64,000 nucleotides of DNA, from contig OZ024743.1 of assembly GCA_964016885.1 (NCBI GenBank), positions 201,810,001 through 201,874,000 of the forward strand. The letters are read 5' to 3'. The DNA comes from Eledone cirrhosa (taxonomy: Eukaryota). Positions 6,769-62,679 of the stretch are shown piece by piece. The translations under genes were made by a program, and so were the position numbers. Position 1 is the first letter of the stretch. Each line of letters begins with the position of its first letter. The notes under the pieces were generated by a model. That model was not told the origin of the DNA. It saw nothing but the letters and a program-made list of their open reading frames with translations, and ran no database searches.

Positions 6769-7181
6769 AGCACAGATAGATATGACGCTACTAATTAACT
6801 AGTAGGACCATTATTCAGAAAGTAGAATGCAGATATTATGAGAAAATAGATATGCCCTACGGTGAAGCTTAAATATTTTGCATTGCATAACTAGTAAAGC
6901 TTGACTGTAGGCCATCTCATGTGTAACATATTGATAATAATAATGGTTTCTTATATAGGCACAAAGCCACCAATTTTTGGGGAGGGGAATGTCGGTGTTT
7001 CTGAACTTAGAACGTAAAGGGCCGTAATTATATGCCATAAAGCATTATCAGACACTCCATTAATACTAACACACACATATATATATACAAATTCAGGGAT
7101 ACATGTGAATATATTCATGTATATGTATGTGTTCGCATGTATCTGTGTATTTCTTTATATTGTATATATATATATATATAT

Positions 7182-8121
7182 AAATGGAATAGAATGAAAC
7201 GAAATTTCATTTCTCACTCTTAGTACGTCACTTACTTAAATGTAAGTATGTATTATGTATACGTACATACATATATGTATACAGACGTACAGTAGTTTGT
7301 ATATATATACATACATGCACACGTATATATATATATGCACGTATCGGTGTACCGAACATTTATTATAATGCTCGGTTTGTTTGTAAACAAACAAACAGCC
7401 TGAATTACGCCGTAAAGTGTTTAGGCAACCACGTCACCGTTTTGTTCAACACTGAGACACGAACGACGTACTAGTTTCAAGCTTATTAGCTATCGTCAGC
7501 ATCGTATACCTTCCTGCCAGATGGTTGAACGTCTGAAAGTATATCCTTTCCTTATGCATATTAACGGCTGAGCAGGCTAATTTGCATATCGAGTGAGTTT
7601 AGTCGGCCGGGCGCACCGAAAACGATAAATGGAATAGAATGAAACGAATATGTATGTACGTATACATACATATATACTTACATTTAAGTAACTGCCGTAC
7701 TAAGAGTGAGAAATAAAATTTCGTTTCATTCTATTCCATTTATCGTTTTCGGTGCGCCCGATCGACTAAACTCACTCGATATGCAAATTAAGCTGCTCAG
7801 CCGTTAATATGCATAAGGAAAGTATATACTTTCAGACGTTCAACCATCTGACAGGAAGGTATACGATGCTGACGATAGCTAATAAGCTTTAAACTAGTAC
7901 ATCGTTCCTGTGTCAGTGTTGAACAAAAAGGTGACGTGGTTGCCTACACACTGTACAGCGTAATTCGGGCTGTTTGTTTGTTTACAAACAAACCGAGCAT
8001 TATAATAAATGTTCGGTAAACTGATACGTGCATATATATATGTTTGCATGTATGTATATATATACATACTACTGTACGTCTGTATACATATATGTATGTA
8101 CGTATACATACATACATACTT
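7182..8121. mobile_element. Retrozyme-like hammerhead repeat, two units in inverted orientation
   Basis: ~445-bp unit 7182-7648, then inverted unit 7650-8121; homologous to 16631-17750 and 61925-62596. Confidence 0.8.
7464..7504 (-). ncRNA. Minimal type I hammerhead ribozyme
   Basis: CGATG-CTGACGA-T AGCT aata AGCT T-GAAA CTAG TA-CGTCG; the mirror copy at 7864-7904(+) has GAAA>TAAA. Confidence 0.85.
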
Positions 8122-8135
8122 ATATATATATATAT

Positions 8136-8224: not shown

Positions 8225-8774
8225 ATATGTTATGTCTTAGTACCTTTGTGGTTCTATGCAGGTGGATGCAGAACAATTATATGAAAGACGTAAGATAAGA
8301 AAATTTTAAAAATTAAAAATTAACTTACTAAAATTTTCACTCGAACTAATTAGTTTCTGTAAGGGGATAAATATAGTTACGTAACATAACTATAGAGAAT
8401 TCCTTACGTCATCAGGGTGTCTATTCTCAGCTAAGTTCCCAGGCAATGCGCGGGCACTAGGAACCCTTATAAAAATAATAATTCAGTGGATGGAATAAAG
8501 CTAGCGGGGACTAAATTCCAAAGCACTTTTTTCAGTGCTTTGGAATTTAGTCCCCGCTAGCTTTATTCCATCCACTGAATTATTCTTTTTATAAGGGTTC
8601 CTAGTGTCTGCGCATTGCCTGGGAACTTAGCTGAGAATAGACACCCTGATGACGTAAGGAATTCTCTATAGTTATGTTACGTAACTATATTTATCCCCTT
8701 ACAGAAACTAATTAGTTGCAGTGAAAATTTCAGTAAGTTAATTTTCAATTTTTAAAATTTTCATATTTTACGTC

Positions 8775-8782
<8 letters not shown>
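8225..8782 (-). mobile_element. PLE-type foldback (~249-bp arms) with hammerhead-like motif in each arm
   Basis: Arms 8279-8527 and 8534-8782, tail 8225-8278; CTGATGA-c gtaagg...ccttac a-GAAAC TAATTA GTT at 8646-8717(+) and mirror; stem I degenerate. Confidence 0.7.
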
Positions 8783-9907: not shown

Positions 9908-10145
9908 ACATACACACACACACACATATATACATATACTCACACACATACGCATACATATAAATATACAACCACACCCCATACACATAAACACAGCACA
10001 GACATACAAGAGTATATACATACAAATACATATAGACGCACACATAAATGCATACAACCACATACACACATATAGTGTAACAATTTCTTAAAGATAAAAA
10101 CACAAATATAAAAACCATAAAGTTACATACAGAATTAGAAAAACA

Positions 10146-11426
10146 CATTATTTTTCATGCTAGGAAAACTCTACTCTTTACTAATGAAAGTATTTGTGTT
10201 AAAAGGTCAAGCCATGAAAACTCTTTCGATGTTGCAATGGGTTCATATGACAGTGCGGATGTGTGTGACTTAGTAGGATTATTCCTTCTCCACACACTTA
10301 AAGAGAAATTTCCTTCCCATAATATCGGTTTATACCGTGACGACGGATTGGCAGTTTCTCATACCACCAACGGCCATAACCTTGATAAATTCTGTAAAGA
10401 TTTAATCAATACTTTTGCTAATCTTGACCATAAAATTACTATAGATACGAACCTTACCAATGCTAACTTTCTTGACATTAATCTTGATCTACTTACTGCC
10501 TCTTTTAAACTTTATCATAAACCTAACGAGAATCTAAGATATATACACATATAGTCTTGCCATCCCCTATAGTTTTTAAAAATCTTATTCCCAATATAGT
10601 CGTAGGATTTCTACTTTATCTTCTGCTCTAGATATTTTTAATAAAGCTGCCCCTTATTATAATAAAGCCCTTAATAACAGCGGCATTACAGAATAGATTA
10701 CATATTTACCTCCCTCTCCCCCTAAAATTAATCACAATAATAGGAAAAGGAAAATTATTTGGTTTACACCCACCTTCTCTCTAACTGTCAAAACTAATGT
10801 AGGAAGGAAATTCCTTGACCTCCTAGATAAGCATGTTCCCCCTAATTATAGATATTAAAAGATATTTAATAGAAATGTAGTTAAAATTAGTTACTCTTGG
10901 TGCCCATCTATGAATCTAAAATCACCAACTCTGATCGTACGAGAATAAATCCAGGATGCAGTTGCAGAAAGCCGGATGAATGCCCATTACAGGGAAAATG
11001 TAACACCAAATCCGTTGTATATGAGGCCAAAGTAACACCTTTGATTACAACCAGCCAGCCAGGAGTGAACGATATGTTGGTATGACTCAAGACAGGTTCA
11101 AAACCAGGTTTTATGCACATGTCGCTTCTTTTAAACACTCTGATAAAAGAACAGCAACGGCCCTCGCTAATAAAGTGTGGGAATTCAAAGATAATAACAT
11201 CCCGTACTCTATCTATTGGTCTATTTTAGACCATTCGAGGGAATACCAAAGGGGCACAAAGAATTGTTCTTTGTGTATCCCTGAAAAATTTAGAATTCTA
11301 CAGAATTTGAAAGCCACTTCAACTTGCCTTAACTCCAAGATCGAGATCTTTAGATGTTGTCCTCACCTGAAATCACATCTGTTCTGTAACTGTATTGACA
11401 TTCCTACGATGACTCAACCACCTTGA
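10146..11426 (+). pseudogene. PLE (Naiad-like) reverse transcriptase-GIY-YIG remnant, 5'-truncated, with frameshifts and stops
   Basis: MGSYDSADVCDLVG, GLYRDDGL, FLDINLDL, CSCRKPDECPLQGKC, KSVVYEA..VGMT, FKTRFYAH, CSLC..EK, LNSK.E...CPH. Confidence 0.9.
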
Positions 11427-12403: not shown

Positions 12404-12441
<38 letters not shown>

Positions 12442-12442
12442 T

Positions 12443-15400
12443 AAAATAACAGATTAAAGTTTAAGCAAAGAATCGCTGCTTTCACCCTTAACGGGATCTT
12501 CTGAAACTAACAAAGTCAATCTGTGAACGCGGAAGTGAATATTTCAAAAAACGTTGCAACCGGAGGAAGACAGGAAGACGATACTATGGTTCGTGGAAAC
12601 GTTCCCTGGCAAAGAACGGGAAAAAACGAATATAATACGTCATTATTTGGAGCGGTGAAAAACAATTACACGCAAAGAGAAAACCACATTTATGGTATAA
12701 AAGAAGTCGTAGACTAATATTCTATTAGGTGGTTCATAGAGACGCTCTCTGGCAATGAACGGAAAAAACGAAGATAATACATCATATGTGGAGCGGGGAG
12801 AACAATAGCACGCAAAGACAAAAGCACGTTAATGGTATAACTGCAGTCGTAGACTAAAATTCTAACTAGGAGACCGAATGATTCTCGGCTTCAGAGTTAA
12901 GAATAAAGTAAATAAAATACAGAGGTAACCGAAATTAAATAAATACAGACACGCATCCATACACATACATACACAAGCATACGCGAAAACACTCGCCATA
13001 GGTATACAAATACACGCACGTACCCCCCCCCCCAACACGGACATACAGAACCCACGCAACGCCTGTACCCGCACGCATACGAATGTATACACCAAATACA
13101 CATAAAATTATATATAAAATTATATATATTAATATATATATATGTGTGTGTGCGTGTGCGTGTATACATATAATTAAATAAACATATATAAATAAATAAA
13201 TACGTATATAACAAGCGCACACACATACCTACATGTAAATACACATATGTTCGGAGACGACGTCAACCAAAACACGAAGTACACATATACACACACCCTA
13301 CATACGTACGCACGCCCATACTCACACAGACCCCAAACTCACGTATACACATAACCAAAACCATATGTACCAGAGGCTTCAACCTTTCCATACAGGTTAA
13401 GGTCAACCTCTCTGTCGTTAATTACTTCGACGTTACCCTCAATTTATCGAATGGCTTTCATTACCCGTATAGAAAGCCGAATGATACGCTTAATTACATA
13501 AGTAAGCTTTCTAACTATCCTGCCAGCATAACCAAGAACCTGGTAAGAAACGTTTCTTTGAGGCTTTCCCGTATATCTACTAACGAGCATATTTTCAACG
13601 ACCATTCCACTTATTACAATGAAGCTCTTGCTCGGAGTGGATTTGTCGATAAGGTAGCATATACAGAGTACGAGAATAGACCTAGAAGAAATAGATCCCG
13701 ACGCATTATATGGTATAACCCACCATATATTATGGAAGTAGCCACACCATCAGCTAAGATCTTTCTATCCCTTATTACGAAGAATTTTCCCCCTACACAT
13801 ATATATAGTAACATTTTTAATAGAAATACTATTAAAATATCTTACTCTACGACTCCCAACCTTGCACATAACATCACAGCTTCAAATTTAGCTAAACTAC
13901 CTAGCCGTAGGAACACGTGCAACCCTGTAATTAGTACTAACTGTAATTGTGGGAATCGGGTTGACTGCTCCTATCCGGGAATTGCCTCTCTAGTAACATT
14001 GTCTACAAATGTAAGGTTGAAACACCCACGTCCCATAGGGCCTACATAGGGTTAACCGCCAATAGATTCAAGCAGCGTCTTTACATGCATACCAATTCTT
14101 TTCGTTACCCTTTAAGACGGAATATGACGTCACTTTCAGCTTATATCTGGAGTCTAAAAGTCAACCATACCCAATATAAGTTACACCGGGAGATCCTAGC
14201 TAGGGCTAGATCGTATAACGGAAATAAAAGACCATGTGACATCTGCGCCGCTGAGGCACTGGAAATACTCCACGCCAAAGACCACATCTTAAACAAAAAA
14301 TCTGAGGCAATTTCGGCTTGTAAACATAAATTCCACAAAACTTTCCTGTATTACAGTCCCACATTATACCCTAACGGATAGTACGAACTATACGCGGATA
14401 TTTTACGTCTTGATGTGGTAGCTAAGTATATGTTATGTTTATACCATTACTTATTTGTATAGTTAAGTATATATTACTTGTATGTTTTGTGAAGGTACGT
14501 ATACTTCCTGATTGTATGTGTTTTGGCGTATATATTATATATTCTGGTACATATGGTTTTGGTTATGTGTATACGTGAGTTTTGCGTCTGTGTGAGTATG
14601 CGGATTCGTACGTATGTAGGGTGTGTGTATATGTGTACTTCGTGTTTTGGTTGCCGTACGTCTCCGAACAAATGTGTATTTACATGTAGGTATTTGTGTG
14701 CGCTTGTTATATACGTATTTATTTATTTATATACGTTTATTTAATTATATGTATAATTTTATGTGTATTTGGTGTATACATTCGTATGCGTGCGGGTACA
14801 GGCGTTGCGTGGGTTCTGTATGTACGTGCGGGATTTTTTTTTGTTTTTTCTTGTTTTTTTTTGTGTGTACGTGCGTGTATTTGTATACATATGGTGAGTG
14901 TTTTCGCGTATGCTTGTGTATGTACGTATATGGATGCGTGTATGTATTTATTTAATTTCGATTACCTCTGTATTTTATTTACTTTATTCTTAACTCTGAA
15001 GCCGAGAATCATTCAGTTTCCTAGTTAGAATTTAATCTACGACTTCAGTTATACCATTTACGTGGTTTTGTCTTTGCGTGCTATTGTTCTCCCCGTTCCA
15101 CATATGACGTATTATCTTCGTTTTTTCCCGTTCATTGCCAGAGAACGTCTCTATGAACCACCTAATAGAATATTAGTCTACGACTTCTTTTATACCATAA
15201 ACGTGGTTTTTTCTTTGCGTGTAATTGTTTTTCACCGCTCCAAATAATGACGTATTATATTCGTTTTTTCCCATTCTTTGCCAGGGAACGTTTCCACGAA
15301 CCAAAGTATCGTCTTCCTGTCTTCCTCCGGTTGCAACGTCTTTTGAAATATCCACTTCCGCGTTCACAGATTGACTTTGTTAGTTTCAGAAGATCCTGTT

Positions 15401-15539
15401 AAGGGTGAAAGCAGCGATTCTTTGCTTAAACTTTAATCTGTTATTTTTATAAATATTTGCTCTACGGTTCCTATATATTTGATATATATTTATCCTTATC
15501 GAGCCCTCTTTGGATTTTAGTCTTCAAATTTATTATTAT

Positions 15540-16506: not shown

Positions 16507-16524
16507 GTGTGTGTGTATATATAT

Positions 16525-16556
<32 letters not shown>

Positions 16557-16559
16557 ATG

Positions 16560-16633
<74 letters not shown>

Positions 16634-16929
16634 TTGTAATAAAATGAAAACGAAATTTCATTTCTCACTCTTAGTACGGCACTTACTTAAATGTAAGTAT
16701 GTATGTATACGTACATACATATATGTATACAGACGTACAGTAGCATGCATATATATATATATATATATATATACATACAGGTACACATACATATATGTAC
16801 GTATCAGTTTAGCGGACGCTTATTATAGCGCCCGCTTTGTTCGTTTGTAAACAAACTGAACAGCCTGAATTTATGCCGTACGGTGTTAAGGCAACCACGT
16901 CACCTTTTTGTTCAACACTGACACAGGAA

Positions 16930-16970
16930 CGATGTACTAGTTTCAAGCTTGTTAGCTATCATCAGCATCG
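16930..16970 (-). ncRNA. Minimal type I hammerhead ribozyme (unit 1)
   Basis: CGATG-CTGATGA-T AGCT aaca AGCT T-GAAA CTAG TA-CATCG; perfect 5-bp stem I, palindromic stem III. Confidence 0.9.
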
Positions 16971-17045
16971 TATACCCTTCTGCCAGATGGTTGAACGTTC
17001 GAAAGTATATACTTTCCTTATGAAAATTAACGGCTGAGCAGCCTA

Positions 17046-17053
17046 ATTTGCAT
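17046..17053 (-). promoter_or_regulatory. Octamer motif ATGCAAAT in retrozyme unit
   Basis: Exact octamer ~80 nt upstream of the ribozyme core; also at 7580, 7781, 17502 and 62097. Confidence 0.45.
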
Positions 17054-17385
17054 ATCGAGTGAGTCCGGCCAGGCGTACCGAGAACGACAAGTTGTAATAA
17101 AATGAAAACGAAATTTCATTTCTCACTCTTAGTACGGCACTTACTTAAATGTAAGTATGTATGTATACGTACATACATATATGTATACAGACGTACAGTA
17201 GCATGCATATATATATATATATATATATACATACAGGTACACATACATATATGTACGTATCAGTTTAGCGGACGCTTATTATAGCGCCCGCTTTGTTCGT
17301 TTGTAAACAAACTGAACAGCCTGAATTTATGCCGTACGGTGTTAAGGCAACCACGTCACCTTTTTGTTCAACACTGACACAGGAA

Positions 17386-17426
17386 CGATGTACTAGTTTC
17401 AAGCTTGTTAGCTATCATCAGCATCG
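17386..17426 (-). ncRNA. Minimal type I hammerhead ribozyme (unit 2)
   Basis: Identical to 16930-16970, 456 bp away. Confidence 0.9.
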
Positions 17427-17659
17427 TATACCCTTCTGCCAGATGGTTGAACGTTCGAAAGTATATACTTTCCTTATGAAAATTAACGGCTGAGCAGCCT
17501 AATTTGCATATCGAGTGAGTCCGGCCAGGCGTACCGAGAACGACAAGTTGTAATAAAATGAAAACGAAATTTCATTTCTCACTCTTAGTACGGCACTTAC
17601 TTAAATGTAAGTATGTATGTATACGTACATACATATATGTATACAGACGTACAGTAGCA

Positions 17660-17737
<78 letters not shown>

Positions 17738-41916: not shown

Positions 41917-41949
41917 ACGACGTTTCGGGCATAAGCCCTTCTTCAGGTG
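41917..41949 (-). ncRNA. Minimal type I hammerhead ribozyme
   Basis: AC-CTGAAGA-A GGGC ttat GCCC-GAAACGTC-GT; palindromic ACGT stem III. Confidence 0.8.
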
Positions 41950-43299: not shown

Positions 43300-45590
43300 C
43301 TAAAGTAATAAGGGTGGGGAGTTCAGGCCGGGGGGAGTGTGGGTCTGTAAGATGAAGATGGTTCTTTGTTCAACTCTGAGGAGATTGGCGGGTGTTCCAT
43401 GGCATTGGAGTAGGCCACAGACTGTGAGATGGCGTGCGGAATGTCCAGGGGCACCAAAGTGGCGGGCGATGGGGGAACTACCACCGAGACGAATATCCCG
43501 GAGGTGCTCAGTGAATCTGTCCGCCAGGCGACGTCCCATCTGTCCGACGTAAGCCGCGCTGCACTCCGAGCAGTGAAGTCCGTAGACTAGGTTGGAGGAG
43601 GTGCAGCGGAAGGCATGCTGGACAGAGAGAGAGTGGCCGATGGGACCCTGGAAGGTGGTGGTGTTGGTGATGTGGGGACAGGTGTTGCAGCGGGGCCTAG
43701 AACAGGGAAAGGAACCGGGGGAGGGAGCGTGGGTTGGGGGTAGGGATCTGTGGACGAGGAGGGTGCGGAGATTGAGTGCGCGTTTGAAGGAGGGGAGGCG
43801 TGGGGTTGGGAAGATGTGGGAGGTGGAGGGGTCGGACTGGAGGCGTCGAAAGAGGCGGCGGATGGTGCGGTGGATGGGTAAGGTGGAGGTGTGGTAGGTG
43901 ATGGGGAAGGGGAGACGGTGGGTGGGTGTGCGCTGGCGTGGGGTGAGGGTGGTGGAGCGGTGGACAGCACGGGCGCGGGTGAGAGCTGTGTGAACGAGAG
44001 AGAGGGGTAACCTCTGCGGATGAAGTGACTGACTAGGGAAAGGGCCTGGGACACGAAGTCAGCATCTCGGCTACAGAGGCGGCGGATCCTGAGGAGTTGG
44101 GAGTAGGGAATAGAGTGTTTACTGTGTGTGGGGTGGGAAGAGGTGAAGTCGAGGTAAGAGTGGGAGTCGGTGGGTTTGAAGAAGGCGGAGGTGACGAGAG
44201 AGTGGTGGGAGGGGTCGAAGGCGACTGAGATGTCTAAGAAGTGGAAGTGAATGGTGGAGATAGAGGTGGTGAAGTGGAGGGAGGGGTGGAAGGAGCAGAA
44301 GAAAGAGAGAAAGGAGTCGAGCTGTTCTCGGGTGAGGGTCGTGGCTCCGATACAGTCGTCGATGTAACGACCGTACAGTTCGGGCGTGGGGCCGGTGTAC
44401 TGGGCAAAGTATTGGGCCTCAACATGGCCAACAAAAAGGTTGGCATAGTTCGGGCCCATTCTTGTACCCATGGCTACCCCCGTGACCTGTTGGTAAAACT
44501 CACCCGAGAAGGAGAAACAATTGAGGGTGAAGACCAGCTCGGCGAGGCGACGGAATGGGGGATGGGCGAAGGTCGAGGTAGTGTTTGAGGGCGCGTAGGC
44601 CGTCGACGTGGGGGATGACGGTGTAGAGGGACTTGATGTCTAGGGTGAAGAGTAAGGGCTGTGGGCCGGGTGGGTAGGTGAAGGAGTCGAAAAGGCGCAG
44701 GGCGTGGTTGGTGTCGGAGATGTGGGAGGGGAGGGTGGTGACAAGGGGGGCGAGGATGGTGTCGAGAAAGGCGGAGATGAGTTCGGTGGGGCAGTTGCAA
44801 GCGGAGAAGATGGGGCGGCCGTGTTTGTGGAGTTTGGGGAGGAAGTAGATGGTGGGGGTGCAGGGGTGCGGACGATGAGGTGGGAAGCGGTGGGGGAAGG
44901 GGGGAGGAGGGAGGAGGAGACAAGGTGTTGGATGGTGGAGGAAACTTGTTGTTGGTAGAGGGGTGTGGGATCGGAGGGTAGAGGGCGGTAGAAGAGGGGG
45001 TTACGGAGCTGACTGAGGGCTTCGGCCGTGTAGAGGTCCGCGCGCCACACCACCACGGCGCCTCCCTTGTCCGCCGGTTTGATGACGATGTCATCTCGGC
45101 TACGGAGGGAGCGGAGAGCGAGGAGTTCGCCCCGTGAGATATTATTCCGTTTGGAACGGTGGCGGAAGTCGAAACGATTTACGACGCTACGGCTGGCATC
45201 GACGAACGCGTCCAGGGTGCTAAATTGCCCTGGGGCCGGCGTCCAAGAAGATGGTCGTCGGCCCAGGGCAAGAAACGGGTCTGTGGCGTCCGCAGCCGGT
45301 GGCGTTCGGCCGAAATGTGCCTGTAGCTTCGTGCGTCGCACGAATCGCTCGACTTCCGTTCGGGTGCGGAACTCGTCGCTGTGCGGAGTGTGGGGTATGA
45401 AGCGAAGGCCTCTACTAAGGAGTGAGCGGTCAGGTGCGGAGAGGGGGAGATCAGGGGTTATGGTGACAACAAGTGGTGGGGTTTGGGTGTGTAGGGGGAA
45501 GGGAGGGTGTGCTGAGGGGTGAGGTGGAGGGTGGAGATTGGGTAGGGGTGTGGGTCGAGGGAGGGGAGGAGAGTGGTGGGTTCATGGGGA
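43300..45590 (-). pseudogene. Neptune-like PLE RT-GIY-YIG ORF, frameshifted
   Basis: IVIKPADKGGAVVV, LDIKSLYTVI, MGTRMGPNYANLFVG, RYIDD, FLDI, SIPYSQLLRIRRLCS, CxxC linker, LVY..YVGQ, RFTEH, PPGLN. Confidence 0.92.
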
Positions 45591-46173: not shown

Positions 46174-48560
46174 TCTTCTGGTTTTATAATTTCACAAAGT
46201 TTTACCAATAGAGAGAGAGTCGGTTTCTAACATAGACACAAGACTCTCTCACATTGGAATTTACACAACATCAACTAGGTAGATATGTATGTATGCATGC
46301 ATGTGTAGATATGGATGTGATTGTATGTGTGGATGTGTATGCTTTGAGTTGTATGTGTGCATGTGTATATGCTTTGTATCTGTACATGTGTATATGCAGT
46401 TATTAGAGGCAACATTTTTGGAATGTTTTACATATTTTTACTGTTCCATTAATGGATTGTACTTGTCATTTTCTAACTAGTTGTGTTCTTCCTGTTCCCG
46501 TGAAGCCTAGCATTGAGGCAGTTACTAACATATCTCAGTGCCCCAATAATCACAGGCATAAATCTGAAGGCGTAATCAGGGTGGAGTATCTGCAGATTTC
46601 TCTTCAGTTCTGCATAAATATTCTCCTTTTCACTAATCTTTGATATTATATTGGCATCTGCTGGGCAGCTAATTTCCACTACTGTGCATGTTTTCTTTTC
46701 CCTGTCCCATATCATAATATCTGGTCTGTTATGCCTGCATTTTATTGGGGTTTTTACTGGAACATTCCACCAGTACTCTTTCATATTATGTACATGGATG
46801 TCTTCCACATTGTTGTAGCTTTTAATGTGTTTATTATCGGGGCTATCTTTTTTACGAACTGCATTGTACAGTGTTTTGGCCACTACATCATGCCTCATAG
46901 GTAGATAGTACCGCGATGACATATTTGTGCAGCTGCTGATGACATGGGTGATATCCTCGATGTTAGTTCTGCAGAGTCTGCACTTGTTATCACATTTAGG
47001 TGCTTTGCCTGCATCCCTATCTCTTTTGTGAATCAGGTATTTCGTGCTAATCTCCTGTTCTTGGATTGCAAAAGCGTATCCTTCAAAGTGGGAACCAATA
47101 TAGCGGTTGTTGGTCCAAGATAGACTACTTTCCTTATCTATATTACTCTCACTTTGGAGCTTCCTGGCAACATATCCATGCATGATTTTTTGCTGATAGG
47201 CATACAGTTTATCATCCATGGATTCACTGCGATACTGCTGAGCGACATCCCTGGATGTGAATTTTTGATTATCACACAGGGACTATCTCTCAAGATGTTC
47301 CTTCCCAACTCTCATGATCTTATCTGTTTCATGCAGATAGACTTGCGCGAGAAGCGGGCTCCTACGCTACGAGGTTCGTAGATGTTGTCGGAGAGATATG
47401 CTGCGACATTCAAATGTTGTCTGGACTGATATTAGGCCTCTGCCTCCCTGCTTACGTTTCAAGTAAAGGCGGTCTATGTCACTGTTGATGTGGAAGTTTC
47501 CAGTGTTGTTCTGTATATTTCGAGTTCCAACATCAACTGCTCGGATTTCATCTATCGTCCAATTGAGTATTCCAAACGTTGGTGTTAGGACAGACACAGC
47601 AAACACATTGTGAGCCACTATTTTGTTTTGCGCAGAGAGTTCCGATGACCAGATCTGTCTTAATCGGGTGTAGTATTCCCTGGTTACGCGTTCTTTATTA
47701 CAGATACCATTATAAGATATGTTCTCATCTATCCCCAGGTATCTGTAGCAGTCCTCATCAGATATCGGTGAAACAGTTAGACCATTGATGACAATGTTGC
47801 TAGATTGGGTTGTTGTTTTTCCCCGCTTTACAGTCATGTATGAGCATTTATCCTGGTCAAATTCCATTCCTATATCCTTTGAGAACGTTGTAACCAGGTC
47901 AAGATTTTTCTTCATCCCATCCATGAGTTTCAGATCTTCATCCCATCCATAGAGTTTCAGATCGTCCACAAAGAAATTATGGGTTAGGTTCGTATTTCTG
48001 TCCTCCTGTGAGCCAATGATGTATCCCTCACATTTCTTGAGCAGAAAGGACAAGGGGTTAATGACAAGATGAACAATATCACAGATAGACTGTCCCCCTG
48101 AAATATACCCCTGCAATATTTTATTTTATCAGTGAAAATAGAGTCCTCCCTCTCTGTCTTTAACCTTAGGATAGTAGCCCAAGAAGAAGACACCCTCTCT
48201 ATAGCTCTGACAATAATGTCTGGGACTTTAGCAAGTTTGAGGGCCGCTATCATCCAAGAGTGGGGAACAGAATCGAAAGCTTTCTTGTAGTCCAGCCAGA
48301 CTGTAGTCATATTCCTCCTAAGTTGTCGCACTTCCGACATCGCAGTTTTGTTGATTAGGAGTTGTTCAGCACATCCCCAAACCTTTTCTTTCCAGCTGCT
48401 TCTTCTTCTGTGATGATGTTATTATTTTCACAGTGATCTTGGAGGAATAGTTTCAGGCAGGCTGTATACATCCTATACATCAGGTTCTGGCATGCAATGG
48501 GTCGACAGTTTTTTGCCAAGTAGGTGTCTTTGTTCTTGGGGACCAGTAACGTTTGTGCTA
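46172..48560 (-). mobile_element. 5'-truncated R4/Dong-clade LINE (RT, CCHC, restriction-like endonuclease), frameshifted
   Basis: WLDYKKAFDSVPHSW, RGIFQGDSLS, FVDDLKLY, RLYLKRKQGGRGL, CRLC...HVISSC, RHD, RPDI, VEISCP; (TATG)n on both flanks. Confidence 0.92.
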
Positions 48561-49409: not shown

Positions 49410-51837
49410 TATTTCTTTATTTACCATAGAGGCATAAAAAGAAGGGACAAATACAAAGGGGGAGTTTACATACAATCGAGTAAAAATGGTATAAAATGAA
49501 AATAATCGAAAACAACCTCAAAAGGGAGGGGACGTGATGGGGGTTGCACACACCCCCGAAAAAGTGTGCAATCCTTTGCCCGGGGAGCACATGGAGAAGG
49601 TGCTCCCCTCTCCTTCACTTCTTTACCTACAGGATGGTATACAGAGAAGGCCCATTTACACGAGCCATTCTCGCCACTATCACCCACCTTTCATAAAACT
49701 GCCTGTGGCCAAGCACCTCTCTCTCCATTCTTATCCTTCTTCCGAAGTGATATCGGAAGAAGTAGACCAGACTATGGCCAGAGAGGAAGTTGCCTGACCT
49801 CAGACCTTTCAATCGTGTCCACCAAACAACCTCTTTCAACATGGCTATTACGCACAGAAAAACCGCCTTTGCTTCCTTTGTGAAGAGGGGAGGCGGTTTG
49901 ATTGTCATCACGGACTCGGCGGTCAATCGAATCGGCGCTACCCGCGACAGCAGTTGTTCGGCGTAGCCCCACAGATCAGCCACGCCCGGACATTGCACCA
50001 ATGCGTGCGCAACGGTTTCTTCGTGACGCACGCATCTAGGGCAAATCTTTTTCGAGGGATCCCTGCTCGGGCGCCCGTGTCTGTAGAGCCTCTCTCGAAC
50101 GGGTAGAGCCCCCCGGTAGCACTGCCAGGCTAGTGACTTCTGGAAGTTGTCCATTGGTCCCGGGCCGAAAGTCCTACCGAACAGGCTGGCCAGCTCGTCC
50201 TCTTCCATGTCCAGCGACTCTCCAAGGGTGTCATCGCCCCTGCTAGCCACCAGCCCTCTATAGAATGATGAGGTGGATTCTCCACCGATGGCCTGGCCCG
50301 CTTGCCAGAGAACCCTGAGCGCCTGAGCACAATCAGTGTGCCAGTCTCCCAGTTTTCCGGATCTTTGTTTGACCCAGGACTGCAGCTGGGTGAGCGAGAC
50401 GAGTCTCGGAAAGGCTCGTTTCACGAACGGAGCCCACACCGGTTGACCAGTGAGGAATACCTGTAGGTGCCGTAGCCTTAATGCGTGCCTACGCATCATC
50501 AACCACGGCATCCCCAGCCCTCCTTTCGAAGGTTGTTGGCAGCAGATGGATCTTCTCACCATAGGAGGGCGCTTCTTCCAAAGAAATTGGAAGAGCATGC
50601 GTTCCATGGTGGTGAGTGTTTCCTTAGGGCAAGGCACGACAGTCAGGCGGTTGTAAGTGACGGACGCTATGTAAATGTTCGCCACCTCCGCCCGGCCTTT
50701 TAGGGACAGCTTACACTTGGCCCATTTCTGGGTTAGTGCAAACACCTTGTTCGTAACCTCGTTCCAGATCTTTTCCACCTGGAGGTCCGGTCCAAACCAG
50801 ACCCCAAGCAACTTTACCGGGCCCTCCGTCCAGTGTCCGACGACACCGTCGGGAGGCATCGGTCTGCCTCTCCACGTTCCGAGTTGCAGCCCGATGGATT
50901 TTTCCCGGTTCAGTTTCGCTCCTGACAACCTCCAGTAAGGTACCGATTGCCTCGATCTCCGAGTCGGTCGATACCATTACTGTTACGTCATCGGCGTAGG
51001 CCGACACCGCTTTGCTCAATCCTGGTTCCAGGGGGATACCCTGCAACAACTCCAACTTCCTCAGTAAAGGCTCGAGAGTCAATACGTACAGAAGGGAGGA
51101 GAGAGGGCACCCCTGTCGAATGGATCGTGTGATTTCGAACGGCTTCGAAAGGTAGCCGTTCACCTTGATCCTAGAACAGATGTGGTTGCTATGTAAGGCA
51201 GTGATCCAGCCTCTGAAAACAGGACCGAACCCAGCCGTCGCTAGCACCGCATCCAGGTAACCATGGTCGACCCTATCGAAGGCCTTAGACTGATCCAAGT
51301 TGATCAGGGCCCCACCGAAGCCGGGTTTGTTGCCAACCCTCTCTATAATGTATCGCATGAGGTGGAGGTTATCGTGAATTGACCTGGATGGGATAGCACA
51401 TGTCTGCGCATCTCCCACCAGGCCACCCACGACAAGCGCCAACCTCTTTGCTAACACCTTGGCCAAAATCTTTAACTCTGTGTTTAGCAGGGTTATGGGC
51501 CGAAAATTATTTATACTATCCCCCTTGTTCTCGTCCTTCCTCACCAGCGAGACTACGCCCTTGGCTACAGAACAAGGAATTCTCCCGTTCTGCTGCCAAT
51601 TGCAGTAGACCGCTTCGAGGAGTTCGGAGAAGAAGACCGGCATTGCTAAATAAAGTTCGTAAGGTATACCATCGAGACCTGGAGATTTGCGTCTGCTGCA
51701 TTGGCTCAGCGCATCCCTGATCTCATCAGCTGAGATTGGTCCCTCGCAGGACTCTGCCTCTTCGCTCGAGAGACGCGGCATGCTGTCGAGGTATGGACCA
51801 AAATCCACGTCCCCGCCCGGACCCTCGCCTCCCCTAA
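49410..51837 (-). mobile_element. Tx1/L1-clade LINE copy A, 5'-truncated
   Basis: KSPGLDG, NFRPITLLN, LDQSKAFDRV, RQGCPLS, AYADD, GGLG, CPRC...HALVQC; 19-bp TSD tcctatatatagatagata at 49391-49409 and 51838-51856. Confidence 0.93.
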
Positions 51838-52102
51838 TCCTATATATAGATAGATAGATAACTTTCTATTTAGTTGCCACCAAGGCATCAAAGATTGGGA
51901 CAAATACAAGGGGGGGGGGTTTACATACATTTCAAAGGACGTGTAAAATCATATAACAAATAAAATTCAACAATCGAAGTCCTCAATAGGGAGGGGTCGT
52001 TGACGTGGGTCGCACACACTCCCGAAAAAATATGCAACCCTCCTCCTCAGGAGCACAAAGAGCGGGTGCTCACTTCCTCTCCTCTCTCTTCTCCTCTCTA
52101 AC

Positions 52103-55100
52103 CTACAGGCTGATATAGAGAGAAGGCCTATTCACTCGGGCCATTCTCGTCACATTCCCCCACCTTTCATAAAACTTTCTGGGATAGAGCACCTCTCTCT
52201 CCATTCTGATCCTTCTAAAATGGTACTTGGAAAAAAGGATCAGTTGTTGGCTGGGGAGAAAAGAGTCTGACCTCAGCCCTTTCAACCTCGTCCACCATAC
52301 AACCTCTTTCGCACAGAAGAAAACCGCCTCTCCTTCGTTTTTGAAGGGGGGAGGCGGTTTGATCGTGACAATGTACTCGGTGGTCAACCGGATTGGTCCC
52401 ACCCGCGACAGTAATCGTTCCACATAGCCCCACAGGTCAGCAACGCCCGGGCAGTGTACGAATGCGTGCGTGACGGTTTCCTTGTCTCGCACGCATCTCG
52501 GACAGATCTTCTTCGAGGGGTCCCTACCTGGGCTCCCGTGTCTGTAGAGCTTGTCCCGAACGGGTAGAGCTCCTTGGTAGCACTGCCAACTCAGGGACTT
52601 TTGGAAATTGTCCATCGGTCCCGTGCCAAACATTTTACCGAACAGACTGGCTAGCTCGTCTTCCTCCATGCCCAGAGCCTCTCCGAGAGCGTCGTCGCAC
52701 TTGCTGCGCACCAACCCTCTATAGAATGTTGAGGTTGAGACTCCACTGATTGCCGGATCCGCTTGCCAGAGGGCTGTGACTGCCTGGGCACATTCAATGT
52801 GCCAGTCGCCCATTTTCCTCGGTCTTTGGTTGACCAGGATTGCACTTCGGTGAGTGAGACGAGTCCCGGAATGGCTCGCCTCACAAAAGGGGTCCATACC
52901 GGCTGACCGGTGAGGAATACCTGGAGGTGCCGTAGCCTTAATGTGTGTCTACACATCGTCACCCACGACAAACCAGCCCTCCTTTCGAAGGGTGTTGACA
53001 GCATATGGATCTTCTCACCAAAGGGGCTCGCTTCTTCCAAAGGAATCAGAAGAGCGCGTGCTCCATTTTGGCGAGCGTTATCGCTGGGCAAGGCACAACG
53101 GTCAAGCGGTAGTAGAAGACGGACGCTATATAAGTGTTCGCCACCTCCGCTCGACCTTTCAGGGATAGTTTGCTACTCGGCCCACTTCTGGGCGAGTGCT
53201 AACACCCTGCTCGTTACCTCGTCCCAGTTATTCTCCACCTGGAGGTCCGGTCCGAACGAGACCCCGAGCAGCTTCACCGGTCCCTCCGCCCAGTGTCCGA
53301 CGGCGCCGTCGTAGGGCATCGGTTTGCCTCTCCACGTTCCGAATTTCAAACTGACGGACTTGTCCCGGTTCAGCTTGGCTCCTGCAAACCTTTCGTATTC
53401 CTCCAGTAAGGTGCCGATCTGCCCGATTTTCGAGGCGCACGACACCATTACTGTCACGTCATCGGCGTAGGCCGACACCGCTTTCCGCAATCCCGGTTCC
53501 AAGGGGATTCCCACAGTAGTGGCGCGAGAGCCAGCACATACAGAAGGGAGGATGGAGGGCATCTCTGTCGGATGGATTGCGCGATTTGGAACGCCTCCGA
53601 GAGGTAGCCGTTAACATTGACCCTCGAGCAGGTGTTGCTGCTGTGCATTGCCGCAATCCAGCCCCTAAAAATGGGTCCGAAGACCGCCGCCGCGAGCACC
53701 GCATCCAGGTACCCATGGTCGACCCTATCGAACGCCTCAGATTGATCCAAGTTGATCAGGGCCCCACCAAAGCCGGGTTCGTTCCCTACTCTCTCTACGA
53801 TGTATCGCATGAGGTGGAGGATGTCGTGTATGGACCTGGAAGGGATTGCGCGTCTGCGCTTCTCCCACCAGGTACCCGACGACAAGCGCCAACCTCTTCT
53901 CTAACACCTTGGCCAAAATCTTTAACTCTGTGTTTAGCAGAGTTATGGGCCTGAAGTTATCTATGTCATCCCCCTTGTTCTCGTCCTTCCTCACCAGCGT
54001 GACTACGCCCTTGGTCACAGAACTGGGAATTCTACCGTTCTGTTGGCAGTTGCAGTAGACCGCCTCGAGGAGATTAAAAACAAGTCCGGCATCGCTTCAT
54101 AAGGTTCGTATGGTAGACCATCGAGACCGGGAGATTTGCGTTTGCCGCATTGGCTCAGCGCTTCCCCTATCTCAGCGGCTGAAATCGGCGTTTCGTAGGA
54201 CTTCGCCTCCCCGTTCGAGAGCCGCGGCAGACCGTCGAGGTATGGACCGAAATCCATAGCCTCTCACGGCCCGCCGCCCCTCCCGAACAGTCCTGCAAAG
54301 CCCCGTTGAAATGCCGCGCACATCCGCTCAGGTTCAAGGATCACGCGTTCATCCTGGTCCTTCAAAGACCGAATCGTGGTCTTGTTTCCACTTTTTGCCC
54401 CTGTCACTCGGGCCCAGCTAACAGCTTTGGCTCCCTCGTTACCCAGAGCACGTATTTTACTCATGACAACGAAGCCCTCGTGCTTCGCGTCAAAGATCTG
54501 GTCTAGGGCCGTTCTTGACGCCAGCACGCCGGCCACGCTGCCACTCCTAATCGCCTCTTCTACTCTATCTATCAATTCCCTTTCAGTTCTATTCCTATCT
54601 ATGCTAATTCCTGACTAAAACCTATCGATTCTATTCTAATTTCTCTCTTGAGAGAGCCCCACCACCTGCTGTTGACAATTGCCCCCGCCAACCGCTGCTT
54701 AATTAGAGTGCTAATCCGCTTACTGTAAGCTTTTTTTGTCGGTAAGGACAAGTTTAGCTTCCAGTAACCGGGTCCTTGTCTATGGGTTCTATCAAGGTTG
54801 ACCACTCCGGTCACCAACTTGTGATCTGAATAGTCAACCATGAACATTTTGGACTGCTTAATATGTCCCTATCCTTATTTTTAACTAGGACCCTATCTAG
54901 GTACGACCTAGATGTTCCCATGAGATTTGTCCACGTCCACAGTGGCACAGTCGGAAAATCTAGTCGATATCTATCGGCCAGATCAAATCGGCCGATTAAC
55001 CGTTTGAGTCTGTTACATACCCCTCTATCGGGACATGCCCCTACATAGTCCCAACGTGCATCCAGGATACCATTCCAGTCCCCCACTAAAAACAAGGAGA

Positions 55101-55494
55101 CGTTCCCAGAAAAGTCTCTAGGCGCTGGAAGAAGACCGGTCGCGGTGTTCCAGATGGAGCATACGCTGCCACCAGCCTGAAGGCTCCGCCTTCACTACTG
55201 CCGAGGTCTAGAACCACCAGTTTGCCCTCCGGGTCCAGGTGTACCTTCCGAGTTGCGAGGCGCAGGTGTTTTCGCAGCAGAACGACCACCCCGCCCCCAC
55301 CCTCGGCTAACAGAGAGATGCATAGATCTCAAAGTCGTCGAAGATAAGGGCCAGTTGGTGCTCGCTGCTGATCCTGGACTCGCAAATATCTGTCACAACC
55401 ATTCTGTGCGACCTGGGGTCATTTAAGAGTTTGCCCTGCTTCCAGGACATCCCTAGCTGCGCACATTTAAACATCCAACTCTAATAACAGCCAT
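52103..55494 (-). pseudogene. Tx1-type ORF2 (APE endonuclease, RT, zinc knuckle), many frameshifts
   Basis: MAVIRVGCLNVR, AYAPS, GDWN, SYLDR, SDHK, GYWKLN, KSPGLDGLP, AYADD, CPRC..H..C. Confidence 0.9.
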
Positions 55495-61235: not shown

Positions 61236-61924
61236 GGAATAGGATTAGCATTTAGCTTCGAACATAGCTGTATACAAATATGTATTTGAATTTCACATAT
61301 CTAAAGAAATACGGTATGTATGATGGTTCCCCTTGCTTCTGACGGACACCGTTGGGTGGCGTTAGCTGCCAGTGTGTTTTTCATAGCTATGGCTTATTTA
61401 TCAACATACCGAGAGAGAAAGAAAAGAGAGGCAGAAGAGCTGCGATGATGGTGGTGGAAGTGATAGTGGTTGTGGTAGTGACCGTTGTGACAGCAACGCT
61501 GAATTATTTTAATCTCACGCCTTTTTGGAAACGAGATGTTATGCGTTTGCTTGCGAAGGAGTACAAAAAACAGGACGCCACGTGAAAGAGAGATAGTAGA
61601 GAGAGAGGCTAGGTGAGTGAGAGCATGAGAAAATAGCACGTTGTCGAAGACGAATATTTTAAACTTTCGCTGTAAAAAAACACAGTTTAGCCTCACGTAT
61701 AAATTCATTCATATATTATATTCCATTTACTGAATCTATTCGGTAGTATTGCTGTCTTACATATGCGTAATTTCGTGTTGTATTTATTACATATGTGCAT
61801 ATATATATATATGTTCTCTATCTGACCACCGATCCAGATGTCTATATTATTATAGTCTGTGACCCAGAAACCTTTGGTAATGGAGTAGTTATATTTTGTG
61901 TTATTCACTTCCTAATTATATATA

Positions 61925-62474
61925 TGTATGTATGTATATATATATATACATACTACTGTACGTCTGTATACATATATGTATGTACGTCTACATACTTATA
62001 TTTAAGTAACAGCCGTACTAAGAGTGGGAAATGAAATTTCGTTTCATTTTTTCCGCTTATCGTTTTCGGTGCACCCGGCCGATTAACCCACTCGATATGC
62101 AAATTGGGCTACTTAGCCGTTAATATGTATGAGGTAAGTATATACGTTCAACAATCTGGCAGGAAGGTATACGTTGCTGACGATAGCTAATAAGCTTGAA
62201 ACTAGTACAGCGTTCCTTTGTCAGTGTTGAACAAACGAGCAACGATGGTTGCTAGACACTACGGCTTAATACAGGATGTTTGTTTACAAACACACCGAGC
62301 ATTATAATAAATGTTCGGTGAATCCATACGTACACATATATATGTGTGCATGTATGTATATATATATACATACTACTGTACGTCTGTATAGATATATGTA
62401 TGTACGTGTACATACTTATATTTAAGTAACAGCCGTACTAAGAGTGGGAAATGAAATTTCGTTTCATTTTTCCG

Positions 62475-62518
<44 letters not shown>

Positions 62519-62596
62519 CGGAAAAAATGAAACGAAATTTCATTTCCCACTCTTAGTACGGCTGTTACTTAAATATAAGTATGTACACGTACATGT
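61925..62596 (+). mobile_element. Retrozyme-like hammerhead repeat, 1.3 units (420-bp period) plus inverted end
   Basis: tactactgtacgtctg at 61951 and 62371; 62512-62596 is an inverted copy of the unit end across a (TA)n spacer. Confidence 0.8.
62172..62212 (+). ncRNA. Minimal type I hammerhead ribozyme
   Basis: CGTTG-CTGACGA-TAGCTaataAGCTT-GAAA CTAG TA-CAGCG. Confidence 0.85.

Positions 62597-62679
<83 letters not shown>

What the first reader, a model, noticed from the sequence alone, without database searches (positions are those of the whole stretch)
16811..16836. Covarying hairpin indicates RNA structure selection in the retrozyme unit
On the sense strand the 16.8-kb copies read AGCGGGCGCU-auaaua-AGCGUCCGCU, while the 7.4/8.0-kb and 62.3-kb copies read ACCGAGCAUU-auaaua-AAUGUUCGGU. 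That is four compensatory base-pair changes in a 10-bp stem, with the loop and G-U pair kept. Hammerhead stem I also stays paired (CGAUG/CAUCG versus CGUUG/CAGCG). Neutral drift is unlikely to do this, so a structured domain outside the ribozyme is implied.
Basis: seen in the sequence. Interest (0 to 1): 0.75.

Follow-up and report, generated by a model that had tools for sequence, protein, structure and literature searches.

The report
Stepwise covarying hairpin in hammerhead retrozyme
The hairpin is real and lies in a 456-base non-coding repeat that carries a hammerhead (self-cutting RNA) motif and has over 24,000 copies in this animal genome; its subfamilies changed both sides of the stem one base at a time while keeping it paired, which likely reflects selection on the folded RNA that a Penelope-type retrotransposon would copy, a known kind of element with an unusually complete record of such changes.

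Summary
Observation confirmed: two 10-bp hairpin versions differ by four double changes around one loop. They sit in a 456-bp unit with a type I hammerhead (24,001 exact cores). Copies end in (TA)n at two fixed points, and two-armed loci mostly use one point per arm (68 of 86): a non-LTR retrozyme with the Penelope-like insertion signature. A tree built without the hairpin orders intermediate subfamilies between the two versions. Neutral simulation keeps all 10 pairs in 188 of 100,000 runs. Palindrome-perfecting mutants are not in excess, so template switching is unlikely. Other helices covary too. Corrections: the window gives one comparison, not several; the G-U pair was lost and regained; G.G and A.C intermediates, bulged stems and a loop-less variant also spread; the ribozyme folds without the hairpin in silico. 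No RNA data. The scan noted similar two-armed retrozymes elsewhere in this genome. Verdict: new member of a known kind; the hairpin's specific role is inferred only.

The parts
16811..16836 (-). Focal 10-bp hairpin, youngest (A) version; loop AUAAUA
   Evidence: sequence; inner pairs form with probability 0.99 in whole monomer
17267..17292 (-). Same hairpin in the second tandem unit
16631..17691 (-). Tandem array, 456-bp period, 2.3 units, 3' end in (TA)n at 16516-16631
   Evidence: 17 other-or-own copies 100% identical among the 40 scored
16930..16970 (-). Type I hammerhead motif: stem I CGAUG/CAUCG, CUGAUGA, U.U-based helix II, GAAA, minimal palindromic helix III, GUA triplet; predicted cut between 16935 and 16934
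   Evidence: motif scan; Rfam HH9 19.3 bits, E 0.083, below gathering 52
17386..17426 (-). Second hammerhead motif; predicted monomer 16935-17390
16839..16861 (-). Neighbouring hairpin H1, with a U-A to C-G change between B and A
16890..16904 (-). Hairpin GGUGAC/GUUGCC, re-formed as AGCAAC/GUUGCU in subfamily C
16873..16881 (-). 5' strand of long-range helix LR1 that closes the domain holding the focal hairpin
   Evidence: C-G to U-A in subfamily D
16674..16682 (-). 3' strand of LR1
16681..16698 (-). Small hairpin at 3' end point 1 (inferred reverse-transcription start 1)
   Evidence: 181 arm ends
16632..16670 (-). UUCG-capped hairpin and tail up to 3' end point 2 (inferred start 2); 16664-16670 is one strand of helix LR2
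   Evidence: 179 arm ends, 168 into (TA)n
17057..17063 (-). LR2 strand lying downstream of end point 2 in a multimer or circle; U-A to C-G in subfamily C
17046..17053 (-). Octamer ATGCAAAT upstream of the hammerhead, role untested
   Evidence: sequence; present in 9 of 10 subfamily consensus rows with its CG flank, octamer itself in all 10
7181..8125 (.). Two-armed insertion of subfamily B; hairpins at 7351-7376 (-) and 7992-8017 (+); one arm ends at point 2, the other at point 1
61917..62606 (+). Subfamily C locus; hairpin at 62294-62319, hammerhead core from 62177

Best explanation
The hairpin is one helix of a 410-556-nt non-coding hammerhead repeat unit whose subfamilies changed the stem base by base while keeping it paired, likely because source copies whose RNA folds properly are the ones that a Penelope-like element (PLE) would reverse-transcribe into (TA)n runs. 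Shown: dispersed tandem and two-armed copies, two fixed 3' ends, a ladder of intermediate stems, no palindrome-repair bias. Inferred: arrays are transcribed, cut by dimeric hammerheads and possibly circularised; a PLE protein (Hydra-type is my best candidate) binds a multi-helix domain downstream of the cut, closed by helix LR1, which holds this hairpin and end point 1, and starts reverse transcription internally at two sites. Selection would act on shape (a stem of about 9 or more pairs), not on stem or loop sequence. I put template/protein-complex architecture at about 0.45 and general RNA stability at about 0.3 within this reading.
For: Tree of 277 copies from 166 locus groups with the hairpin masked orders B, then G.G at pair 2, then G-C, then G-C at pairs 8 and 5, then U.G and C-G at pair 9. 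Wobble intermediates on the ribozyme strand: pair 9 U.G 10 loci vs C.A 1; pair 8 G.U 4 vs A.C 0. Neutral simulation 188 of 100,000. Three pairs went A-U to G-C against a neutral spectrum of G>A 14.7 vs A>G 5.5 per 1000. Helices other than the focal one: broken pairs 1 vs 5.4 expected in D (P 0.003), 4 vs 7.2 in C (P 0.05), 1 vs 2.7 in A (P 0.10), whereas private changes hit paired and unpaired sites alike and broke 46 of 59 pairs. Monomer folding z -10.5 sense vs -5.3 antisense. Two end points and 68 of 86 two-armed loci with one of each match the PLE tail and two internal start sites (PMC11167929, PMC8557442). PLE pieces with CxCX5C, CxxC and CxH motifs, as described for the (TA)n-targeting Hydra clade, lie in the window and flanks.
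Against: No transcript, cut or circle was observed. Pair 5 shows A.C (6 loci) as often as G.U (5), and pair 2 passed through G.G (8 loci). Weakened stems (about -7 to -10 kcal/mol) amplified to at least 1,016 copies, and a loop-less variant is at 2 loci. Multi-locus haplotypes are fully paired in 9 of 19, single-locus ones in 13 of 39: no clear difference. All states come from one lineage in one genome, so events are few and related. The P values share history. Breaking the hairpin in silico left the hammerhead folded in 45 of 45 mutants and LR1/LR2 in 43 of 45. No autonomous PLE sharing this unit was found.
Confidence: 0.72

Rival explanations
1. DNA-level template switching in the quasi-palindrome copies one arm onto the other, so covariation needs no selection.
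For: The family does fold back during insertion (inverted arms at many loci); a perfect-palindrome variant exists at 10 of 193 locus groups; a short-patch switch for pair 9 cannot be excluded.
Against: In subfamily C the perfecting T>C occurs 29 times (of 71) and the neighbouring breaking T>C 24 times (of 56); the perfecting G>A is 56 of the first 100 of 414 and a breaking G>A 86 of the first 100 of 418. One-sided intermediates exist for pairs 2, 5, 8, 9, with either arm changing first, and the G.U between changed pairs persists in A.
Confidence: 0.05
2. Drift among a few source copies plus mutation bias (CpG decay, A-to-I editing) produced the pattern by chance.
For: One lineage, few events, and the hairpin was noticed because it covaries; the stem changes fast (8 of 20 vs 20 of 299 elsewhere); A5>G is 67 of the first 100 of 140 against 24 of 56 for its partner; mismatched intermediates amplified.
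Against: Simulation with the measured spectrum, CpG included (about 20 vs 14.7 per 1000), gives 188 of 100,000, still about 2% if some ten helices are allowed for. No unit-wide A>G excess on the sense strand (50 vs 38 T>C in 109 loci, P 0.46). The changes run against the AT bias.
Confidence: 0.12
3. The selected thing is a signal in the loop (TATA-like box in DNA, or AAUAAA in RNA) presented or masked by the stem.
For: TATAATAA is unchanged in all ten subfamily consensus rows; B, C and intermediates carry AATAAA; an octamer lies upstream of the hammerhead.
Against: The youngest subfamily A reads AATAAG; a variant without the loop is at 2 loci; eight unchanged bases are expected about half the time at 7% background divergence; the searches that sampled variants fixed the loop.
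Confidence: 0.08

Closest known systems
Metazoan non-LTR retrozymes (Cervera and de la Pena 2020, PMC7229834, parts 2-4 of 6 read; Li, Clavereau and Pollet, bioRxiv 10.64898/2026.07.22.740005, parts 1-3 of 5 read)
   Same: Tandem non-coding units with a type I hammerhead each, thousands of copies, predicted highly self-paired RNA; helix III of one pair with a palindromic tetraloop as in axolotl HHR_Amex1 and a U.U base of helix II as in HHR_Amex2; proposed mobilisation by PLEs.
   Different: Both weak features sit in one ribozyme here; unit 410-556 nt with an internal (RY)n rod; the parts read give energy-based folds but no subfamily-level covariation outside the ribozyme; expression and cutting are shown there, not here.
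Penelope-like element insertion anatomy (Craig et al. 2021, PMC8557442, passages and section 11 read; Frangieh et al. 2024, PMC11167929, parts 1-2 of 4 read)
   Same: Partial tandems, inverted arm, optional tail between two start sites of reverse transcription, internal initiation in a stem-loop, (TA)n targets (Hydra and Naiad clades).
   Different: No ORF; tail about 65-70 nt rather than 30-40; no autonomous partner identified.
Compensatory evolution in SINE and other structured RNAs (general knowledge, recalled; one search gave only a search listing)
   Same: Pair changes through G.U intermediates are the textbook route.
   Different: Here the intermediates are preserved as amplified subfamilies in one genome.

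Membership tests
Non-LTR retrozyme | Type I hammerhead motif in each unit | tested here: met
   (core intact in all ten subfamily rows)
Non-LTR retrozyme | Short tandem units dispersed at many loci | tested here: met
   456-bp period; 100 cut-to-cut monomers of 410-556 nt; many contigs
Non-LTR retrozyme | No protein coding | tested here: met
   frames of 120 aa or more over the array are Ile/Tyr repeats from (TA)n
Non-LTR retrozyme | Highly self-paired monomer (predicted) | tested here: met
   z -10.5, 0 of 100 shuffles as stable
Non-LTR retrozyme | Self-cleavage | not testable with these tools
   motif only; helix II base is U.U, not G-C
Non-LTR retrozyme | Expressed as linear and circular RNA | not testable with these tools
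   no RNA holder listed
Rfam hammerhead families | Score at gathering threshold | tested here: not met
   0 matches; HH9 19.3 of 52 bits
Non-autonomous PLE derivative | Inverted second arm and two 3' end points (tail) | tested here: met
   181 and 179 ends, 21 between; 68 of 86 two-armed loci with one of each
Non-autonomous PLE derivative | Microsatellite target | tested here: met
   (TA)n after 147 of 181 and 168 of 179 ends
Non-autonomous PLE derivative | Homology to the pseudo-LTR of an autonomous PLE | tested here: inconclusive
   PLE pieces flank many loci but in the two read, (TA)n or other sequence separates them from the unit; no genome-wide partner search
Selected RNA helix | Two-sided changes beyond chance, independent of relatedness | tested here: inconclusive
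   6 of 10 pairs with two-sided change, 96% cells paired, 0-1 of 500 shuffles, but 15 hand-picked related haplotypes; lineage simulation supports; R-scape not available

The most novel reading that the evidence does not exclude
The helices downstream of the ribozyme, including this hairpin and two long-range helices that enclose both reverse-transcription start points, are the cis-acting docking platform by which a Penelope-type enzyme recognises a multimeric or circular retrozyme RNA, and the subfamily ladder is a natural mutational map of that platform, with each compensatory step frozen in the genome.
Probability: 0.35. Interest if true: 0.62.

Novelty: new member of a known kind. Interest (0 to 1): 0.4.

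Why it matters
How animal retrozymes are recognised and pasted by a helper element is proposed but not shown in the papers read. Covarying helices outside the ribozyme point to the parts of the RNA that matter, and natural intermediates give ready-made variants for testing. The ladder is also a rare within-genome record of compensatory steps, including mismatch intermediates. The class of element itself is known.

Tried and rejected
RNA evidence: no RNA holder listed. Other species: runs X4 and X6 (organisms B, C; word share 0.28) laid 0 contigs on either version, so no cross-species test. A-to-I editing as driver: no sense-strand A>G excess and no neighbour preference in 109 C loci, after leaving out 16 polymorphic sites, 5 ascertained sites and the (RY)n region; the site-level A5>G excess is at the level expected from the unit-wide ratio and stays unexplained only relative to low T>C counts. 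First simulation (138 of 200,000) used single-locus changes only, undercounted transitions, and was replaced. Hairpin as folding aid for the hammerhead: not supported in silico. Rfam e-value hits to microRNA families fall on the (RY)n rod, far below gathering. Pfam gave 0 families for 6 PLE frames; their clade call rests on motifs read by eye. The 558-bp family at L368 is not homologous apart from one 12-nt match per unit, E 0.55. A sequence look-up of earlier findings found nothing. Literature searches listed no description of this family or of covariation outside the ribozyme in animal retrozymes; supplements were not read and may list related elements.

Full report
Observation. The two hairpin versions are at the stated places. 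Pairs 2, 5, 8 and 9 differ on both sides, and both stems fold with 10 pairs. The five window copies give two states only.

The element. 16631-17691 is a 456-bp tandem with a type I hammerhead motif per unit. Its helix II starts with U.U and helix III is one pair capped by a palindromic tetraloop, features described for axolotl retrozymes that cut as dimers (PMC7229834, part 3). Rfam does not call it. The 3.0-Gb genome holds 24,001 exact cores and 28,736 hairpin-pattern matches against 44 controls; 3,895 belong to the AGC class. In 301 locus groups arms end at two points about 65-70 nt apart (181 and 179 ends, 21 between, 240 running on), mostly into (TA)n, and 68 of 86 two-armed loci use one point per arm. 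This matches the tail and two internal start sites of PLEs (PMC11167929 parts 1-2; PMC8557442 passages). I looked for the two end points after an earlier scan note suggested them. PLE pieces with RT followed by GIY-YIG and the Hydra-type motifs lie in the window and in flanks, but no helper sharing the unit was found.

The path. I sampled copies by similarity and by position along contig C1 (fetched in 21, 22, 28, 29); these patterns fix the loop or the core, so variants there are under-sampled. A tree of 277 copies from 166 groups, hairpin masked and midpoint-rooted, places C and B at one end, then AGCGAACATT/AATGTTCGGT (G.G at pair 2, A-U at pair 6), AGCGAACATT/AATGTTCGCT and the side branch AGCGAATGTT/AATATTCGCT, then AGCGGGCGTT/AACGTCCGCT with A.C and G.U neighbours at pair 5, then U.G at pair 9, then A, with bulged D forms nested beyond. 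A is youngest (0.5% from its consensus against 1.5-3% for the others), which supports the direction B to A but is not a rooting by outgroup. Within the AGC class of 193 groups: pair 9 U.G 10, C.A 1; pair 8 G.U 4, A.C 0; pair 5 G.U 5, A.C 6; pair 2 G.G 8; pair 6 A-U 11, G.U 61. So the changes were stepwise, mostly but not only through wobbles, and the G.U was lost and regained.

Chance. From one copy at each of 109 C loci I measured a neutral spectrum; eight changes drawn from it leave 10 of 10 pairs in 188 of 100,000 runs. On 15 hand-picked haplotypes 6 of 10 pairs change on both sides and 96% of cells pair, a count that ignores relatedness. Other helices defined on B alone break less than expected: D 1 vs 5.4, C 4 vs 7.2 (these four lie in a hairpin that re-forms in shifted register), A 1 vs 2.7, two intermediates 2 vs 4.7 and 2 vs 3.4 (P 0.003, 0.05, 0.10, 0.04, 0.19). 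Against: 9 of 19 multi-locus and 13 of 39 single-locus haplotypes are fully paired.

Template switching. Counts by eye from genome-wide listings in subfamily C: perfecting T>C 29 of 71, neighbouring breaking T>C 24 of 56; perfecting G>A 56 of the first 100 of 414, breaking G>A 86 of the first 100 of 418. No excess in either direction, so neither replication nor cDNA fold-back explains the pattern. Editing and CpG decay do not either.

RNA or DNA. The monomer folds at z -10.5 on the ribozyme strand and -5.3 on the other, and the hairpin forms in context with probability 0.97-0.99 in B/C and A and 0.43-0.97 in D forms. LR2 pairs the tail with sequence downstream of end point 2 and covaries in C, which would need a multimeric or circular template. 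RNA is the simplest carrier for an element copied through RNA, but none was observed.

Function. Random breaking of the stem left hammerhead helices intact in 45 of 45 and LR1/LR2 in 43 of 45, and weakened the neighbour H1 in 16 of 45, so a role in catalysis is unlikely. Loop signals are doubtful: A lacks AATAAA and a loop-less form is at two loci. The hairpin lies in the multiloop closed by LR1 with end point 1. I therefore favour a shape constraint on the template domain used by the PLE enzyme, with general stability as the close alternative; both are inference.

Verdict. Real, selected most likely, and part of a unit-wide fold in a new member of a known class. The literature searches listed no account of this family; supplements of PMC7229834, PMC8557442 and the preprint were not seen and may bear on that. 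Interest 0.4.

Noticed in passing
window 10081-11426 (+) and 13192-14381 (+): Broken PLE frames, RT then GIY-YIG, with CxCX5C, CxxC and CxH motifs as described for the Hydra clade; the second sits in a large inverted repeat (about 12440-13380 and 14480-15460) with 140-bp tandem units.
   Followed up: partly
window 43300-45581 (-), hammerhead-like motif at 41946 (-): A different PLE (RT plus GIY-YIG in frameshifted pieces) with a minimal hammerhead-like core downstream.
   Followed up: no
window 18184 (+), 9014 (-), 18972 (+), 20010 (-): Further hammerhead-like motifs of unrelated sequence; 18184 and 9014 are two copies of one family, and 18972 has paired stems by eye.
   Followed up: no
window 8290-8780: Perfect fold-back insertion of another repeat, related by eye to the 558-bp hammerhead family at L368, directly beside the B locus.
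   Followed up: partly
L368 3240-3251, 3798-3809, 4332-4343, 5303-5314: The 558-bp family shares one 12-nt stretch with this unit, in both about 65-70 nt before the 3' end (E 0.55); possible common docking motif at end point 1.
   Followed up: partly
window 17046-17053 (-): Octamer ATGCAAAT about 90 nt upstream of the hammerhead core in all subfamilies; possible internal promoter element.
   Followed up: no
L049 1120-1220: A PLE 3' end with a hammerhead-like motif whose core reads CTTGATAAG and which ends in (TA)n with a tail resembling that of subfamily B.
   Followed up: no
genome-wide: Strand imbalance 273 forward vs 141 reverse for one hairpin variant, perhaps one long array; not checked.
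   Followed up: no
window 46473-48418 (-) and 49627-55191 (-): Fragments of two other non-LTR retrotransposons (RT with restriction-like C-terminus; L1/Tx1-like), named from motifs by eye.
   Followed up: no
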